64,000 nt of DNA from Escherichia phage vB_EcoS_HdH2: the sequence record NC_048748.1; one strand, given 5' to 3'. The position numbers and the translations under genes were made by a program. Below are positions 3,948 through 34,387 of the stretch, piece by piece. The notes beneath the pieces are model-generated. The model ran no database searches. It was not told the DNA's origin and saw nothing but the letters and a program-made list of their open reading frames with translations. The first letter of the stretch is position 1, and every line of letters starts with the position of its first letter.

Positions 3948-4355
3948 TTATTCGCCTGCGGCTTGTTTTACTTCATCGGCAACGCCTAACAGCTGCGCCA
4001 CGGCGTCCAACGTTTCTAATTTTGCGCTTTCCAGTGATGCCAGATCGTCAACGTCTTTGATAATGCCGGAATCAATGGCATGTTTAGCGATAACACGCAC
4101 ATAATGCGCTTTACGAATGGAACTGCCGCCGCCAACTTTACGCGGCTTATCGCTTTTCTGATACGCTTTCGCGCTGGTCAATTTTGAGCGAACGGACACG
4201 GGGGAGGCCGCACCTACTGCTTTCGCAATCTCTTTCAAGCCGTCGCTATTTGCGAAATCTAAACCGTTTTCATTGATTAGCTGCTGATACATGGAAACAG
4301 CCTGCTGGGTGTTTTCTTCATTCCAAGAAAATTTTGCGGTTTTAACGTTAGTCAT
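3948..4355 (-). CDS. pre-early protein, possible A2 homolog (DNA-binding)
   Basis: 135 aa, immediately downstream of A1 as in T5; identity inferred from position and size. Confidence 0.5.
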   Translation of the reverse strand: MTNVKTAKFSWNEENTQQAVSMYQQLINENGLDFANSDGLKEIAKAVGAASPVSVRSKLTSAKAYQKSDKPRKVGGGSSIRKAHYVRVIAKHAIDSGIIKDVDDLASLESAKLETLDAVAQLLGVADEVKQAAGE

Positions 4356-4456
4356 GATTATAACTCCTATTGAATTAATTTAAGGGATAAGATTAACATA
4401 ATGTTAATCGTTATATCCCCCGAACTACTGGGGGATATAAAAGTAACACTATAAAC

Positions 4457-4708
4457 TTATGCTACAGCTTCCCATTTTTCGTTACGCTGGATAACCTTTA
4501 CAGCGTCGCCGGATTTAACCCGAACGCTATAAATAGTTTTTCCGTTGTTACTCCGTTCCGTTTCAGCGTATACCGCATCAATTACATCAAACGGCATAAG
4601 CGCCGCGCCTTTGATGCGTTCGGTTTTTCCGGTTGCCTCATCCGTTTTAGTAACGAAAGGAATAAAAACGGATTGACCAATTTTAGGCGCATTAGTAACG
4701 TTTTGCAT
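4457..4708 (-). CDS. hypothetical protein
   Basis: 83-aa ORF. Confidence 0.4.
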   Translation of the reverse strand: MQNVTNAPKIGQSVFIPFVTKTDEATGKTERIKGAALMPFDVIDAVYAETERSNNGKTIYSVRVKSGDAVKVIQRNEKWEAVA

Positions 4709-4909
4709 AGTATAAACTCCAGTTTATTTAGTGGATTGTTCCGCATTACCTGCTGTAAAAGTAGTGGCAGGTAATAAGTAACAATCCGCTCGCCATTATA
4801 ATCAATTTAAGGAACTCCACTCAGGCCGCTATATCCCAGTTAGGGGGCGGGGCACATTATGGCAAGTACCGGCCGTCAAATTTTATCAAGTTATCGCTCT
4901 CATCGAACT

Positions 4910-4933
4910 GGGTACATCTTAAAGCCTATCGGC
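4910..4933. repeat. Left arm of 24-bp inverted repeat flanking ORF 4941-5144
   Basis: gggtacatcttaaagcctatcggc; reverse complement recurs at 5179-5202 with 1 mismatch. Confidence 0.6.
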
Positions 4934-4940
4934 TAGGGTG

Positions 4941-5144
4941 TCAAACAATTTTTTGCAGTTTTTTATGATTCTCTTTCAAGTCAATCATAATATTGCGCCA
5001 GATCATTTCCAACCCTTGCTGGCGGCCTTTCTTGTACTGCGTGAATCTATATTTTACGGATTGCTGAGCTATTGTCAACAATTTTTTAGTAGTACCATCC
5101 AATTTTTTGGCTGGTTTACCAGTTATTAAAAGCGTTTGTTTCAT
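4941..5144 (-). CDS. small basic protein (IR-flanked)
   Basis: 67 aa, Lys/Arg-rich; sits between the 24-bp inverted repeats. Confidence 0.4.
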   Translation of the reverse strand: MKQTLLITGKPAKKLDGTTKKLLTIAQQSVKYRFTQYKKGRQQGLEMIWRNIMIDLKENHKKLQKIV

Positions 5145-5178
5145 ATCTGCGATTCCTTATATAATTGATAAGTTTACC

Positions 5179-5202
5179 GCCGATAGACTTTAAGATGTAC
5201 CC
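5179..5202. repeat. Right arm of 24-bp inverted repeat
   Basis: gccgatagactttaagatgtaccc. Confidence 0.6.
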
Positions 5203-5639
5203 AATTTTTAAAGAGCGCGGCGGTAAACTTTCCCGCCGTGTAGTTCGTCATTGCCGCCCTACGAGATAAATAATAGGGGATACCCAAAAATGGCGCAACC
5301 TTATTTTTGTAAAGAAATGTAAAGAAGGCAACACGCCCGGCGCTCACATAAGTTTAAAGGAAACGGGCGCGCGGATACCACAAAACACAGCAGATAGGCA
5401 AGTAATTTTTTCATTTATATTTGCCTTGCCCTACTTGACAAAACTTAAAAAGCTCGTGGTAGCGATAAACGAGGGTAGGCAATGCAATGGCATACCTGAA
5501 AATTTTACCGCTTTCTAGGGCGTTTTAGGCGGCCTAAAATTGATTTAACAAATATTTAACAACTGCAAAATTGAAAAATAGTTGGAAAAGGTATTGACTT
5601 TTAAAAATCAAGACTAAATGAGTTATTTTATAAAATTAA

Positions 5640-5987
5640 TTAATTGACTTTCTTTTTATATTGTGAAGGCCGGTTTTTATTGTTTTCGGCCTGCGTTACT
5701 TGTCTAAGGTTATCCCCTTTATTATTTAGCTTGTTACGATCAATATGATCAATCATTAGATTACTATCTATTTCACCATGTAATAGTAACCATACGACAC
5801 GATGTACTAAATAACATTCTTTATTAAGTCGAACGATATAATAACCTTGTGAATAGTAAGTACCTGCAACTGTATCTTTCCTAACTCTTCCCTTATTGAC
5901 TTTCCAGCGTAGTGACGTTTTCGATGTTTCATCATAATAAAAGTAATGATTAAACAAGTCATAATCCATTTCTTTATATTTACCCAT
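5640..5987 (-). CDS. HNH homing endonuclease
   Basis: YYDETSKTSLRWK ... IDHIDRNKLNN...NLRQVT; paralogous in pattern to 1342-1851. Confidence 0.6.
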   Translation of the reverse strand: MGKYKEMDYDLFNHYFYYDETSKTSLRWKVNKGRVRKDTVAGTYYSQGYYIVRLNKECYLVHRVVWLLLHGEIDSNLMIDHIDRNKLNNKGDNLRQVTQAENNKNRPSQYKKKVN

Positions 5988-6042
5988 TGTTATAGTTTCC
6001 TTATGTTATTAATTTAATCTCTATTATATTATATCAAAACCA

Positions 6043-6115
6043 TTAGCAGACTACCTAATGAGTTTTTCAAGTTTAATTAGCAGACTACTAATCCCGGAAA
6101 ATCTCATTAGCCAAC
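6043..6115. repeat. Three direct repeats of attagc(a/c)(g/a)actac motif
   Basis: ttagcagactacc, ttagcagactact, ttagccaactaact read in tandem. Confidence 0.45.
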
Positions 6116-6251
6116 TAACTATTTCTTGAGTTATAATATAAATATAAATTAATGAGAAATAATCACTATAAAAATAATCACTACGATAATAATAACAACA
6201 AGAAACTATCGGCCTAAGTGAGAACCACTATCATTTAAGTTATTCACAAAG

Positions 6252-6321
6252 TTATCCACAGCACAAAATGATTTGACACGATAGGCGGCGATATACGGGC
6301 TTATCCACAGACTTATCCACA
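6252..6321 (+). promoter_or_regulatory. Three DnaA-box consensus sites (TTATCCACA)
   Basis: ttatccaca at 6252-6260, 6301-6309, 6313-6321. Confidence 0.6.
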
Positions 6322-6347
6322 GGTTATCCTACTGTATAAATATACAG
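6308..6347. repeat. Left 40-bp inverted repeat (includes palindrome ctgtataaatatacag) bracketing the 6.3-9.4 kb segment
   Basis: Reverse complement of 9374-9413 with about 3 mismatches. Confidence 0.65.
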
Positions 6348-6614
6348 GGTAGAAAGGTAGTGTTAACGACTGCAATCAATTTTATGCCGCCTAAAACGCT
6401 TTCTAACGAGCTAAATGCGGTGGGGTAATATTAAAGTAAAGCCGCAACGCGTCGCCCTGGTGGCTTCGCCGTGTTTTGCTCTTTACTATGCCGCTGCGCG
6501 GTTAGCATAAAACTAGGTGTTAGGCAAGGAAAATAAAAAGGTAAAATAATATTTGCCCCTAGAAAGAAAATACCTTTATCATTCACTCACCGATTAACGA
6601 GGGAGGCCGAACAA

Positions 6615-7592
6615 ATGAGGCTTTATAAACCAGATAACGCAACCGTCTTAAAAGGTGCATTGCGCAACCTGCTGGATGGTAGCAGAACAACCAGCATTAA
6701 ACACTTTGTTAACAAGGCCGAAGATATTCACCAAAATTTTTTTGATGATTTCGACGCCTATGATATGAGTAGCTTTTTGCAACTATATAAGCAAGGGGCA
6801 ACGATTATCTTATATAATCGAGATAATCACCTGCTTACTAGCAGGGGGCCGGACACTGATTTCATAATCGTAAAAGGTAACACAGTAAAAGCCTATGATA
6901 CTGGGGCGGGCTTAGAAGTTTTTTCAATAGAAAACTATGAAGCCAACCCCAATGATCTTTATGACGTTGAAAACTTTCTTGATTCATTTTGGCGTTATTT
7001 ATCCGTTGGCTGGAATCGGTCAATTGGTGACGGGTATCGTCTGGCGGCTGTAATGGCTTTTGATGATAACGGTAATTTTTTGTTACCGTCGGAAGTATAC
7101 CCATACGTATATGATGGGGATATAGAAAGCGCGGGCTTTTCTTTCTGGAAGGAGGAGGATCAGCCTATTGACAACACGGAAAAACATGCTGTAAATTCTA
7201 ACACTCAAACCATTGAAAACAAAGGAAAAAATGCCATGACCAAGATCGCTAATATCGTTGCCGCTAATAAGTCCGCCGTTGTAAATGCTGCAAAACTGGA
7301 AGCGGGTAAAATTGCACTGACTCAAATTACGAAAGTAGCGGCTAAAAAAGCACCGTTTATTATCAAGGGTTATATTGATACGCCGATTGGTCGGGTAGTG
7401 ATTGCCAACCTGCTGAGCGTAGCGGTTGACCAGTACTCCCCTAGCAACCAAAAGGCGAAAGCGGTAGCGGATGCAGCTATGGAAGCGGCTATGTTAGAAA
7501 TGGTACAAAGTTTTAACATCGCTGAAATGATTGACGAAATGGTGAAAGGTATTGATATTTCTACTTTTACCGTTAACACCGAAAACGAGTAA
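6615..7592 (+). CDS. hypothetical protein
   Basis: 325-aa ORF, RBS gagggagg upstream; Ala/Lys-rich C-terminal half. Confidence 0.55.
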   Translation: MRLYKPDNATVLKGALRNLLDGSRTTSIKHFVNKAEDIHQNFFDDFDAYDMSSFLQLYKQGATIILYNRDNHLLTSRGPDTDFIIVKGNTVKAYDTGAGLEVFSIENYEANPNDLYDVENFLDSFWRYLSVGWNRSIGDGYRLAAVMAFDDNGNFLLPSEVYPYVYDGDIESAGFSFWKEEDQPIDNTEKHAVNSNTQTIENKGKNAMTKIANIVAANKSAVVNAAKLEAGKIALTQITKVAAKKAPFIIKGYIDTPIGRVVIANLLSVAVDQYSPSNQKAKAVADAAMEAAMLEMVQSFNIAEMIDEMVKGIDISTFTVNTENE

Positions 7593-9114: not shown

Positions 9115-9191
9115 TAATCACGGGGCGCAACTATCAGGGAGTGCCCCAATTCCCAAATGAGAATCATTCTCATTTGACCGCGCCCGTGATG

Positions 9192-9251
9192 GTTAGCCCG
9201 CTAACGATTAGGGTGTTACGTGTTGCCTTGTGTGATCGTTAGCGGGCTAAC
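9192..9251. repeat. 17-bp inverted repeat hairpin (gttagcccgctaacgat / atcgttagcgggctaac), each arm internally palindromic
   Basis: Read directly. Confidence 0.6.
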
Positions 9252-9373
9252 TAATTTTTAAGCCTCCTCCAATTTTGCCCTTGTTTTAGTATCCCCACCA
9301 AAATTAAACGCGTTAGAATGCGATTCAGGACGTTTTAGCGGTATATTAGAATTATTCACTACATAGGAATACT

Positions 9374-9413
9374 GTATAAATATACAGTAGGATAAGCTGT
9401 GGATAAGTCTGTT
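9374..9413. repeat. Right 40-bp inverted repeat with DnaA boxes (TGTGGATAA at 9399-9407 and 9472-9480)
   Basis: Reverse complement of 6308-6347. Confidence 0.65.
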
Positions 9414-9675
9414 AATAACGCCTCAAAATGGCTAGGATTCTGTCAAGTCAAATCGTGCTGTTAATAAGTCTGTGGATAACTTAAATAACAGTGTTTCTCA
9501 CTTCCATTCTTAAACGAGAATGATTCTCATTTGCATTCCACTGTCTAACCGATAATCATTTCCTTTCTTAAATGAGAATCATTTCACTTTTTGAATAGTT
9601 CTCATTTCACTTCTTAAATGAGAATCATTATCATTCGCATTCCACTTCTTAAATGATAATGATTCTCATTCAAAG

Positions 9676-9695
9676 TCGCAGGGCAATTGCCCTGC
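9676..9695. repeat. Perfect 20-bp palindrome cgcagggcaattgccctgcg
   Basis: Read directly. Confidence 0.6.
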
Positions 9696-9700
9696 GCTTT

Positions 9701-10438
9701 TGTGCAAATCCGACATGTGCTCCAAGGGTTACGTGCTGGCGTGTATGTGCAAATCCGACAATTTTTGGTAGTGTGCAAATCCGACCCGAAAAATTTATAA
9801 ATTCGTGAGAGTGACGAATCTGTCTCCTAAAAACTCCAGCAATCACGAACTGCGTTCGAATCCTGTGGAATTAGCTAGAGTATGTGCAAATCCGACATGT
9901 GTTGAGCTGTGCGAATCCGATGAAATTTTTGTGACTTCGATGAGAGGGTGTGTGATTGTATAGGTTTGAGGAGAAGATGAGAGAGCGAGAAAAATTTGGG
10001 AGGCTAGAAGGATGTGGGTGCAGGATTGGTGCGGAGCACCTGATTTGCGGGGATTTTGGGGAAGAGTTGAGAAGATTTGGGAAGATTTGAGATAGGTGCA
10101 GAAAAAGCGAAATTTTATTAGCTAAATGGGGCAAAATAGCTTGACAAGTGAAAATTCTTGTGGCTCTAAAAACTCAGGCAATCATGGGCCTTCGGCCCGA
10201 AATAATGCTGCCATTTTCAAGAGATTATATGTTCCTAAAAACTTAGGCGTTTGTGCAAATCCGACCATAAATTTCTAGAAATGCAGTGTGCAAATCCGAC
10301 AGTAATTTCTGGAAATGTGTTTTCAAAAAATGTCTCCTAGAAATAACCGCCCTCCCTATAACCGCCCTGTATAGGAAAACCGGCCTAGGATATTTATAGT
10401 AGATGAGAAACTGCCCTAGAACATGTGCAAATCCGATT
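9701..10438 (+). repeat. Array of at least 7 copies of TGTGCAAATCCGA(C/T) in non-coding DNA
   Basis: Copies at 9701, 9746, 9772, 9883, 10252, 10287, 10425 (degenerate 9908); one extra copy inside a CDS at 12127. Confidence 0.65.
9960..10130 (+). repeat. Polypurine (G/A-rich) tract, almost C-free on the plus strand
   Basis: Strong strand composition asymmetry; ORF 9871-10134 here is low-complexity and probably spurious. Confidence 0.5.
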
Positions 10439-34259: not shown

Positions 34260-34387
34260 ATATTTAAAAGTATTCAAATACTAGTTTAAACACTTTTAAA
34301 TATGTTTCCGAATTAGATAACTATTATACCAAGTTTTAAGGCACTGAGCAAGTCAAATTTTAAAGAACTTGCTCAGTGCTGTATTAG

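What the first reader, a model, noticed from the sequence alone, without database searches (positions are those of the whole stretch)
4910..5202. Small basic ORF flanked by 24-bp inverted repeats (miniature cassette)
gggtacatcttaaagcctatcggc (4910-4933) and its reverse complement (5179-5202, one mismatch) bracket a 245-bp unit containing a single 67-aa Lys/Arg-rich ORF. This is the geometry of a miniature mobile element or a hairpin-bounded regulatory unit.
Basis: seen in the sequence. Interest (0 to 1): 0.5.

Follow-up and report, generated by a model that had tools for sequence, protein, structure and literature searches.

The report
RNA helix bracketing phage hdi gene
The inverted repeat is real but not a mobile element: in this T5-like phage it brackets the known cell-division-inhibitor gene hdi, and it most likely pairs in the messenger RNA, next to a host antitermination signal, much as ribosomal RNA precursors do.

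Summary
Arms 4910-4933 and 5179-5202 differ by one mismatch and are the strongest inverted repeat (IR) in the window. They enclose a 67-aa minus-strand ORF.

Both parts are already known. The window is the left end of a T5-like phage. The IR is annotated in T5 as 'inverted repeat A/A''. The ORF is the ortholog (66/67) of T5.008 = Hdi, an experimentally shown FtsZ inhibitor.

The mobile-element reading fails. There is one locus per terminal repeat, no target-site duplication, no match in about 185,000 bacterial and archaeal genomes, and no empty site.

New here:
- An IR sits at this position in 57 of 58 distinct relatives across five lineages. Its sequence is genus-specific, but the arms stay complementary through two-sided changes, matched insertions and G·U intermediates.
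- The left arm is the core of the classical promoter P_D/E20.
- The right arm lies in the hdi 5' leader. A consensus boxA (Nus-factor site, GCTCTTTAAAA), present on the transcribed strand in all 57, directly precedes it.

Best model: a 24-29-bp leader-trailer RNA helix around the hdi cistron, built like the rRNA precursor helix and a likely RNase III substrate. Pairing is well supported. Nus binding and cleavage are inferred.

The parts
5179..5202 (-). Distal (5') arm of the IR, equal to T5 'inverted repeat A''. It lies in the hdi 5' leader and ends 34 nt before the hdi AUG. In the predicted RNA the helix continues to 5206 (U-A, U·G, A-U, A-U).
4910..4933 (-). Proximal (3') arm of the IR, equal to T5 'inverted repeat A'. 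It starts 7 nt after the hdi stop codon. The same bases form the spacer, -10 (TAAGAT, 4921-4916) and discriminator of promoter P_D/E20. The helix extends to 4906.
   Evidence: AY692264 annotates P-D/E20 over the homologous 4664-4738
4941..5144 (-). hdi (T5.008 ortholog), 67 aa, host division inhibitor acting on FtsZ. Shine-Dalgarno AAGGAA at 5157-5152.
   Evidence: 66/67 identity; PMC10714956 main text and supplement primers
5203..5217 (-). boxA plus spacer. The sense strand reads CGCUCUUUAAAAAUU, a perfect match to the gamma-proteobacterial boxA consensus GYTCTTTAANA and equal to the lambda nutL boxA-spacer with the extra consensus U. It abuts the distal arm.
5218..5238 (-). GC hairpin (CGGCGG / 9-nt loop / CCGCCG) immediately 5' of boxA, in the position boxB occupies in rrn leaders. 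The stem is conserved and the loop is inverted in two relatives.
5270..5298 (-). Candidate un-annotated sigma-70 promoter ('P_X') for the hdi leader: -35 TTGCGC (5298-5293), 17-nt spacer, -10 TATTAT (5275-5270), with an A/T-rich stretch upstream (5299-5320). The hexamers are conserved and the spacer sequence varies across four genera.
   Evidence: alignment and hexamer scan; inferred, not mapped
5051..5078 (-). Promoter P_H22 inside the hdi coding sequence: -35 TTGACA (5078-5073), -10 TAAAAT (5056-5051). Its transcripts carry only the proximal arm.
4939..4944 (-). -35 hexamer TTGACA of P_D/E20. It contains the hdi stop codon TGA (4943-4941).
4895..4901 (-). 'Anti-boxA': sense GAGAGCG, which pairs with GCGCUCU of boxA as a 7-bp lower helix below a 4x4 internal loop. 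In other genera a second, direct boxA occupies this position.
   Evidence: (I1)

Best explanation
The IR is the DNA footprint of a long-range RNA helix in the leftward pre-early transcript of a T5-like phage.

Proposed sequence of events:
1. Transcription enters from upstream of 5202. The source is a conserved candidate promoter at 5298-5270, or promoters further upstream.
2. The RNA first makes a GC hairpin, then a consensus boxA, then the 5' strand of the helix (5202-5179).
3. Next come the hdi cistron and, 7 nt after its stop codon, the 3' strand (4933-4910). These same bases are the core of promoter P_D/E20.
4. The two strands pair into a helix of about 28 bp that encloses hdi.

By analogy with rRNA operons, host NusB/NusE bound to boxA would keep the 5' strand at the RNA exit channel of RNA polymerase until the 3' strand emerges. 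The finished helix would then be cut by RNase III. That cut would separate the hdi message from the upstream leader and from the downstream T5.007-A2-A1 message, and so set its stability and output.

Shown here:
- the IR, its position and its conservation;
- maintained complementarity with genus-specific sequence;
- boxA next to the 5' strand, on the transcribed strand only;
- the predicted fold.

Inferred:
- that one RNA spans both arms. This follows from hdi being expressed with no promoter between the distal arm and hdi and no terminator-like site before the proximal arm;
- Nus-factor binding;
- RNase III cleavage;
- the effect on hdi expression.
For: (1) The slot just upstream of the T5.007 homolog carries the top-scoring long-range IR in 57 of 58 distinct loci from Tequintavirus, Epseptimavirus, Sugarlandvirus, Erwinia phage KEY and Pectobacterium phage My1. 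The arm sequence differs between genera, yet the arms are 88-100% complementary within each genome, and the helix is always about 24-29 bp.

(2) Two-sided changes:
- GGGTAC/GTACCC to GGGAAC/GTTCCC;
- TACATC/GATGTA to TATATC/GATATA, with the U·G intermediate common;
- ATCTT/AAGAT to ATTTT/AAAAT;
- KEY GGTATC/GATACC versus L104 GGTGTC/GACACC;
- a 1-nt insertion in both arms of L061.

(3) Formal count on 24 distinct rows:
- 98.6% of cells are paired, against 27-48% when the partner is slid by 1-3 columns;
- 4 pairs and 10 cells changed on both sides, against 1.7 and 2.2 in shuffles (8/500 and 0/500 reach the observed values);
- covariation score 0.126 against 0.091 (0/500).

(4) Over the 57 loci the sense RNA has 1286 Watson-Crick pairs, 52 G·U, 7 A·C and 0 transversion mismatches. 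The sense fold has 28 contiguous pairs, with z = -8.65. The antisense helix is broken by C·A mismatches.

(5) In all six Sugarlandvirus loci the arms differ by a 1-nt bulge. The bulge removes the -10 copy from the distal arm but keeps the pairing. The distal arm is therefore not a second promoter or an identical protein site.

(6) The arms lie just outside the ORF(s), whatever the slot holds: hdi alone, an extra ORF plus hdi, that ORF alone, or two ORFs.

(7) GCTCTTTAA lies on the sense strand 1-7 nt before the full distal arm in 57 of 57 loci and never on the antisense strand. It matches the published boxA consensus. The order hairpin-boxA-leader strand … trailer strand mirrors rrn operons.

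(8) hdi RNA and Hdi function during infection are experimentally shown (PMC10714956). No terminator-like site lies between 5270 and 4900 on the minus strand.
Against: - No transcript ends, RNase III sites or Nus-factor binding have been mapped for T5 pre-early RNA.
- The candidate upstream promoter rests on sequence conservation alone.
- Counted as independent events, G·U outnumbers A·C only by about 9 to 6. That is not significant, and excess C-to-T change on the non-template strand could mimic it.
- Template-switch correction of quasi-palindromes could produce matched changes in both arms without selection on RNA.
- The 3' arm coincides with the -10 region of P_D/E20 in every genus. That may point to a DNA-level role.
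- The rightward operon has boxA but no comparable helix, so boxA and the helix need not be functionally coupled.
- In rrn operons boxA lies 18-19 nt from boxC. Here it abuts the helix, and in Tequintavirus part of boxA can itself pair, which could compete with NusB/E binding.
Confidence: 0.5

Rival explanations
1. DNA-level operator pair. The two arms are two copies of the P_D/E20 core. RNA polymerase or a phage regulator (for example the A1-dependent shut-off function, or the DNA-binding protein A2) binds both and loops out P_H22 and hdi to shut off pre-early transcription.
For: The proximal arm is centred on the -10 of the leftward promoter in every genus: T5 TTGACA-17-TAAGAT, Shiner TTGACA-17-TATTAT, KEY TTGCAA-17-CATAAT. 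[quoted passage not shown] Genus-specific arm sequences could co-evolve with a phage-encoded binder.
Against: - The distal arm has no -35 in any genus.
- The Sugarlandvirus arms differ by an internal 1-nt indel, which would change a protein site but only bulges a helix.
- The matched insertion in L061 lengthens the promoter spacer to 18 nt and is mirrored in the distal arm for no promoter-related reason.
- One-sided differences are all transitions, and mostly G·U in the sense RNA.
- Arm spacing varies (217, 243-245, 249-261, 341-344, 398-430 nt) without helical phasing.
Confidence: 0.15
2. Recombination scaffold. The conserved arms, boxA copies and promoter cores act as homology blocks for swapping small host-takeover ORFs between phages, like the promoter-stem-loop cassettes of T4-type phages. 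Replication template switching keeps the arms alike. No RNA function is involved.
For: Slot content varies while the flanks are conserved: hdi; orfX plus hdi with an ATGA overlap; orfX only; two ORFs in Sugarlandvirus and KEY; two consecutive IR-bounded units in My1. A 20-nt hairpin next to the arm is exactly inverted in two relatives, which shows that template-switch events occur here.
Against: Exchange between genomes needs conserved flanks, not complementarity between the two flanks of one genome. Arms in inverted orientation would invert the segment rather than swap it, and no inverted orientation was seen in 57 loci. The model does not explain the constant helix length of about 24-29 bp or the strand-specific boxA abutting the arm.
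Confidence: 0.1
3. Invertible promoter switch (inverton). The IR arms are recombination sites, and flipping the 245-bp segment would redirect the strong promoter P_H22.
For: The geometry fits: arms of about 24 bp around a segment of about 250 bp that contains a strong promoter.
Against: All 57 distinct loci have the same orientation. The segment carries a whole functional gene that inversion would disconnect from its leader. No invertase was looked for or noticed nearby.
Confidence: 0.03
4. Miniature inverted-repeat mobile element carrying a small ORF.
For: Terminal inverted repeats bracket a short unit.
Against: There is a single locus and 0 matches in genome contigs. No target-site duplication is present. 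The unit is present at the orthologous site in all relatives. The cargo is the functional gene hdi plus two classical promoters.
Confidence: 0.02

Closest known systems
T5 'inverted repeat A / A'' (GenBank AY587007; 'Repeat Region 1' of Davison, bioRxiv 10.1101/866236)
   Same: Same element: same sequence and position (T5 4682-4706 and 4950-4974), 93% identical surroundings.
   Different: It was annotated only as a repeat. Davison called the region 'untranslated' and assigned no function. It in fact holds hdi and two promoters.
T5 gene 008 = hdi, host division inhibitor (Mahata et al. 2023, PMC10714956)
   Same: The ORF is 66/67 identical. The published cloning primers, Cas13a spacer and flanking primers map onto this locus.
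   Different: That work did not address the flanking IR or the leader.
rRNA operon leader-trailer helix with boxB-boxA-boxC (rrn antitermination complex; PMC4807359, PMC10250234)
   Same: Same order of parts: promoter, hairpin, consensus boxA, leader strand, looped-out cargo, complementary trailer strand. The helix exceeds 17 bp (here 24-29 bp; the 23S helix is 27 bp). The flanks vary in sequence and covary. Such a helix is the kind of substrate RNase III cuts.
   Different: The cargo is a 67-aa protein cistron (217-430 nt), not an rRNA. boxA abuts the helix instead of lying 18-19 nt before boxC. The trailer strand doubles as a promoter core. Nus binding and RNase III cleavage are untested here.
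Lambda nutL (boxA-spacer cgcucuuaaaaauuaa; PMC2724277)
   Same: The phage motif CGCUCUUUAAAAAUU is nutL boxA plus spacer with the one extra U that makes the consensus boxA. The spacer AUU needed for NusA binding is present.
   Different: No N-type boxB follows boxA and no N protein is known in T5. The hairpin precedes boxA, as in rrn operons.
T7 early mRNA processing by RNase III around small early genes, including the FtsZ inhibitor 0.4 (from general knowledge; not checked here)
   Same: A lytic coliphage that uses host RNA polymerase cuts its first polycistronic transcript into units around small host-takeover genes.
   Different: The T7 sites are local hairpins between genes, not a helix that brackets a cistron.
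MITEs and invertons
   Same: Short inverted repeats around a segment of a few hundred base pairs.
   Different: No copies elsewhere, no target-site duplication, no empty sites and no alternative orientation.

Membership tests
T5 inverted repeat A/A' (annotated repeat of Tequintavirus) | Same sequence at the orthologous position, between the T5.007 homolog and Repeat Region 2 | tested here: met
   T5 arms at 4683-4706 and 4950-4973 are identical to the window arms
hdi / T5.008 | Orthology to the experimentally characterised protein | tested here: met
   66/67 identity; published primers and Cas13a spacer match the locus; phrog_4718
hdi / T5.008 | Inhibition of FtsZ ring formation | not testable with these tools
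   Shown for the T5 protein in PMC10714956. Inferred here from 99% identity.
MITE / miniature mobile element | Terminal inverted repeats | tested here: met
MITE / miniature mobile element | Target-site duplication flanking the repeats | tested here: not met
   the flanks TCGAACT and AATTTTT are not a direct repeat
MITE / miniature mobile element | Multiple dispersed copies, and presence/absence polymorphism among relatives | tested here: not met
   only the two arms; 0 matches in 185,579 species genomes; present at the same site in 57 of 57
boxA (Nus-factor loading site) | Match to consensus GYTCTTTAANA (rrn UGCUCUUUA; lambda CGCUCUUA) | tested here: met
   GCTCTTTAAAA at 5216-5206 (minus strand). 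The window has 4 matches against 0.72 expected; two of the other three were inspected and look incidental.
boxA (Nus-factor loading site) | Lies on the transcribed strand in a leader, conserved among relatives | tested here: met
   (57 of 57 on the sense strand, 0 on the antisense strand); a second and third copy lie in the leaders of the other pre-early units, each on its own transcribed strand.
boxA (Nus-factor loading site) | Binds NusB/NusE and modifies RNA polymerase | not testable with these tools
   Needs ChIP, binding assays or nus mutant hosts
rrn-type leader-trailer helix | Complementary strands flanking the cargo, more than 17 bp, with covariation | tested here: met
rrn-type leader-trailer helix | boxA upstream of the leader strand at a fixed short distance | tested here: met
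   1-7 nt before the full arm in all genera (rrn: 18-19 nt to boxC)
rrn-type leader-trailer helix | Cleavage by RNase III | not testable with these tools
   Inferred from a near-perfect duplex of 24-28 bp; no data
rrn-type leader-trailer helix | Cargo is a structural RNA (rRNA) | tested here: not met
   The cargo is the hdi protein cistron. It is therefore filed as a variant, not a member.
Inverton (invertible promoter) | Both orientations of the segment occur | tested here: not met
   one orientation in 57 distinct loci
Rfam RNA families | Match to any curated covariance model | tested here: not met
   nothing relevant in 4300-6700 at E up to 1

The most novel reading that the evidence does not exclude
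T5-like phages have borrowed the host's rRNA-type machinery for a protein gene. A consensus boxA loads Nus factors on pre-early transcripts. At the hdi slot the complex chaperones a leader-trailer helix that RNase III cuts, which makes a self-contained expression cassette for a toxic host-takeover gene. That cassette can hold different small ORFs. It would be the first boxA-coupled leader-trailer helix around an mRNA cistron, and the first indication that T5 pre-early transcription is Nus-modified.
Probability: 0.35. Interest if true: 0.7.

Novelty: new variant of a known kind. Interest (0 to 1): 0.55.

Why it matters
The function of the conserved repeats in the T5 first-step-transfer DNA has been open since the genome was sequenced. 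So has the way pre-early genes are expressed and then shut off.

If the model holds, it gives one of those repeats (IRA/IRA') a concrete and testable role. It would also show that T5-like phages carry rrn-type boxA signals in every pre-early transcription unit, which links T5 host takeover to the host Nus factors. And it would extend the rRNA leader-trailer and boxA design to a protein-coding cassette.

On the practical side, P_D/E20 and P_H22 are widely used strong promoters. Here the P_D/E20 core doubles as one strand of an RNA helix, and its -35 contains the hdi stop codon.

If the model fails, the finding is simply the known IRA/IRA' pair around the known gene hdi.

Tried and rejected
- **Mobile element.** A scan of genome contigs for the arm found 0 matches. 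There is no target-site duplication and no empty site.
- **Distal arm as a mirror-image promoter.** No acceptable -35 at 16-18 nt in T5-type, Sugarlandvirus or KEY. Rejected.
- **Rfam.** No family matched the region.
- **Strand test by wobble counts.** Suggestive by cells (52 G·U against 7 A·C) but only about 9 against 6 by independent events. I do not rest the case on it.
- **One alignment across all genera for the pair count.** MAFFT put KEY, Sugarlandvirus and My1 out of register. The formal test was therefore run only on Tequintavirus and Epseptimavirus, and the other genera were analysed one genome at a time.
- **Second leader-trailer helix next to the rightward boxA.** None found.
- **Other boxA-consensus hits in the window.** 34358(-) lies in a hairpin loop upstream of a promoter and 43639(-) at the end of an ORF, so both look incidental. 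32996(+) was not inspected.
- **Alternative local hairpin 5170-5182 / 5218-5230 (13 bp, I8).** It is lost in the two relatives where the neighbouring hairpin is inverted, so it is not treated as essential.
- **T5.009-like upstream ORF across the distal arm.** Its length varies from 25 to 56 aa through frameshifts, and it is absent in Epseptimavirus. Doubtful as a gene.
- **Literature.** No paper links boxA or Nus factors with T5. No TSS or processing map of pre-early RNA was found. The Davison 2015 review is not held in the library.

Full report
**Observation.** The 24-mer GGGTACATCTTAAAGCCTATCGGC lies at 4910-4933. Its reverse complement lies at 5179-5202 with one mismatch, and 245 nt separate the two. 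The repeat finder extends the pair to 39 nt at 82% complementarity. The 24-mer has no other match in the window with up to 3 mismatches, against 0.00 expected. It is the only inverted repeat (IR) in the window with at least 23 matches and a 50-600 nt loop, and none of 60 simulated sequences gave any IR of 20 nt or more. The 67-aa basic ORF is at 4941..5144 on the minus strand.

**What the locus is.** The window is the left end of a T5-like phage (Tequintavirus).
- The region is about 93% identical to T5 and lies in the left terminal repeat, the first-step-transfer DNA.
- A1, A2 and the T5.007 homolog lie to its left on the minus strand. The window also holds 24 tRNA genes.
- GenBank AY587007 already annotates 'inverted repeat A' (4682-4706) and 'A'' (4950-4974) at the homologous positions.
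- AY543070 annotates the ORF as T5.008.
- AY692264 places the classical promoters P-D/E20 (4664-4738) and P-H22 (4810-4867) there.
- Davison calls the area 'Repeat Region 1'. [quoted passage not shown]

T5.008 has since been characterised as Hdi. It blocks FtsZ ring formation, is made during infection, and gives T5 a competitive advantage (PMC10714956). The window ORF is 66/67 identical. The published cloning primers, Cas13a spacer and flanking primers map exactly onto this unit.

**Anatomy on the transcribed (minus) strand.**
- The promoter scan finds TTGACA-17-TAAGAT with its -35 at 4944-4939 and -10 at 4921-4916. It also finds TTGACA-16-TAAAAT at 5078-5051.
- The left arm is therefore the spacer, -10 and discriminator of P_D/E20. 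The -35 of P_D/E20 contains the hdi stop codon. P_H22 lies inside hdi.
- The right arm ends 34 nt before the hdi AUG, so it sits in the hdi 5' leader.
- The left arm begins 7 nt after the stop codon.

**Not a mobile element.**
- The arm has no exact match in one genome from each of 185,579 bacterial and archaeal species.
- There is no target-site duplication.
- Every relative has the unit at the same site and in the same orientation.

**Comparative evidence.** I collected loci from IMG/VR, GenBank phages and metagenomes through the conserved neighbour gene. That gave 58 distinct upstream regions. In 57 of them the top-scoring long-range IR is at this slot. The exception is a Vibrio phage, where the gene sits in a different context.

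The arm sequence is genus-specific:

| Lineage | Arm |
|---|---|
| Tequintavirus | GGGTACATC… |
| Epseptimavirus | GGGAACATC… |
| Sugarlandvirus | 14 bp + 1-nt bulge + 14 bp, around TTCTATAA…GCGTTATCGGC |
| Erwinia phage KEY | AATCTGGTATCTATTATGCGCCGCT |
| Pectobacterium My1 | 16 bp + bulge + 11 bp, plus a second IR-bounded unit upstream |

Within each genome the arms are 88-100% complementary, and the helix is always about 24-29 bp.

Two-sided changes occur between close relatives. They include a matched 1-nt insertion in both arms of L061, and an A-U to G-C change between KEY and a metagenomic relative.

On 24 distinct alignable rows:
- 98.6% of cells are paired, against 27-48% when the partner is slid by 1-3 columns.
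- 4 pairs and 10 cells changed on both sides, against 1.7 and 2.2 in shuffles.
- The covariation score exceeds all 500 shuffles.
- All 31 one-sided changes are G·U in the sense RNA.

Over all 57 loci the tally is 1286 Watson-Crick pairs, 52 G·U, 7 A·C and 0 transversion mismatches.

The Sugarlandvirus bulge removes the -10 copy from the distal arm but preserves pairing. The distal arm has no -35 in any genus. These two facts argue against two equivalent promoter or protein sites.

The content between the arms varies:
- hdi alone in most loci;
- an extra 52-aa ORF joined to hdi by an ATGA overlap;
- only that ORF's relative in DT57C-like phages, Gostya9 and HK6;
- two ORFs in Sugarlandvirus and KEY.

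The arms always stay just outside the ORFs.

**Folding.** The sense RNA 5265-4880 folds with the long-range helix in the minimum-free-energy and centroid structures. It has 28 contiguous pairs, a 4x4 internal loop and a 7-bp lower helix (z = -8.65). C·A mismatches interrupt the antisense helix. Across all 57 loci the arm pairs have a mean probability of 0.99 in the sense RNA, and the sense fold is the more stable in 45 of 57. With loops of 217-430 nt, only RNA pairing is physically plausible.

**Leader.** An alignment of the region upstream of the distal arm shows two things.

First, it has the signature of a sigma-70 promoter in four genera: an A/T-rich stretch, TTGnnn, a 16-17-nt spacer of variable sequence, and an invariant TATTAT (window 5298-5270). 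This promoter is un-annotated, and I infer it from conservation alone.

Second, it contains an invariant motif, CGCTCTTTAA(A/C)AATT, that abuts the arm. The motif is a consensus boxA:
- Published sequences are rrn UGCUCUUUA (with spacer acaauuua), lambda CGCUCUUA, and nutL boxA-spacer cgcucuuaaaaauuaa. The extra U makes the high-efficiency consensus, and the spacer AUU is needed for NusA binding (PMC2724277).
- The gamma-proteobacterial consensus is GYTCTTTAANA (PMC5725501), and the window matches it perfectly.
- GCTCTTTAA lies on the sense strand 1-7 nt before the full arm in 57 of 57 loci and never on the antisense strand.
- In Epseptimavirus, KEY, Sugarlandvirus and My1 a second copy follows the proximal arm, at the start of the P_D/E20-type transcript. 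It is often identical to rrn boxA plus spacer over 15 nt.
- In Tequintavirus that position instead holds an inverted GAGAGCG, which pairs with boxA.
- The rightward pre-early operon has its own GC hairpin plus TGCTCTTTA in its leader (6458-6484, plus strand), conserved among relatives.

I found no paper linking boxA or Nus factors with T5.

**Mechanism proposed.** The order promoter, hairpin, boxA, leader strand, cargo, trailer strand is that of rRNA operons. There, boxA-bound NusB/E (with SuhB) tethers the leader strand to the elongating polymerase, so that it pairs with the trailer when the trailer emerges. The resulting helix carries the RNase III site (PMC4807359; PMC10250234).

I propose that the IR is such a leader-trailer helix around the hdi cistron. 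Pairing is well supported by the evidence above. Nus binding, RNase III cleavage and the effect on hdi output are inferred.

Because P_D/E20 transcripts start just past the proximal arm, and P_H22 transcripts carry only that arm, only transcripts that enter from upstream would form the helix.

**Rivals.**
- A DNA operator pair remains possible, because the proximal arm is always the promoter core. The bulge, the matched insertion, the transition-only differences and the unphased spacing all count against it.
- A recombination scaffold explains the variable cargo but not the maintained complementarity.
- Inverton and MITE readings fail their defining tests.

**Verdict.** The feature as reported is real but already annotated (IRA/IRA' around hdi), and its 'mobile cassette' reading is wrong. 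The comparative analysis adds an unreported and testable reading: a boxA-coupled leader-trailer RNA helix, a new variant of a known kind. Public RNA-seq of a Tequintavirus (PRJEB101990) and rnc or nus mutant hosts could settle it.

Noticed in passing
window 6458-6484 (+): The leader of the rightward pre-early operon has a GC hairpin followed by TGCTCTTTA, an exact match to the rrn boxA 9-mer. It lies upstream of the first rightward ORF (6615..7592) and is conserved in Tequintavirus relatives. Every pre-early transcription unit therefore seems to carry boxA on its transcribed strand.
   Followed up: partly
window 5270-5320 (-): Candidate un-annotated sigma-70 promoter: an A/T-rich stretch, TTGCGC, a 17-nt spacer and TATTAT. 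The hexamers are conserved but the spacer varies across Tequintavirus, Epseptimavirus, KEY and Sugarlandvirus. A weak terminator-like hairpin (5338-5326, minus strand) lies just upstream.
   Followed up: partly
window 4730-4753 / 4767-4790 (-): A hairpin in the 5' leader of the T5.007 homolog, just before its Shine-Dalgarno sequence, shows clear compensatory changes among relatives: CCTGC/GCAGG to TCTGC/GCAGA, to CCTGA/TCAGG, and to ATAGCG/CGCTAT.
   Followed up: no
L026 and L027 (= L064, L065), homologous to window 5218-5238: The 20-nt hairpin CGGCGGTAAACTTCCCGCCG is exactly reverse-complemented in two relatives. The stem is kept and the loop is flipped, which is a footprint of template switching at a hairpin.
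   Followed up: no
window 5145-5262 (-); T5 T5.009: A short upstream ORF (MTNYTAG…) starts in the leader, runs across the distal arm, and in T5 ends in an ATGA overlap with hdi. Its length varies from 25 to 56 aa through frameshifts, and it is absent in Epseptimavirus. It is doubtful as a gene but could be a leader peptide.
   Followed up: partly
L006/L007, L023 (extra ORF); L014/L016, L037, L038 (only ORF in the slot): A 52-56-aa ORF (MQTIYNDHPATHDTIEKIEQW…; phrog_21018, function unknown) sits beside hdi or replaces it between the arms. DT57C-like phages, Gostya9 and HK6 therefore lack hdi.
   Followed up: partly
window 5640-5987 (-): A 115-aa HNH-type homing endonuclease ORF lies between Repeat Regions 1 and 2. 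It differs in length from T5 hegG (172 aa), and Davison reports no such insert in most T5-like phages.
   Followed up: no
window 6250-6335 (+): A cluster of DnaA-box-like sequences (TTATCCACA three times, plus GTTATCC) sits between the divergent pre-early promoters. It matches Davison's description of Repeat Region 2.
   Followed up: no
window 9149-9702: A dense set of palindromes and inverted repeats built on AATGAGAATCATTCTCATTT. This is presumably the injection-stop-signal region (Repeat Region 3).
   Followed up: no
window 34300-34380 (-): A 12-bp hairpin (GCACTGAGCAAG…CTTGCTCAGTGC) overlaps the -35 of an extended -10 promoter (TTGACT … TGGTATAAT), just upstream of the tRNA cluster. The boxA-consensus match in its loop looks incidental.
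   Followed up: no
L079 (My1) 808-845 / 1078-1115 and 1133-1148 / 1476-1491: Pectobacterium phage My1 has two consecutive IR-bounded small-ORF units upstream of its T5.007 homolog. A boxA follows each promoter-bearing arm, which suggests the design is modular.
   Followed up: partly
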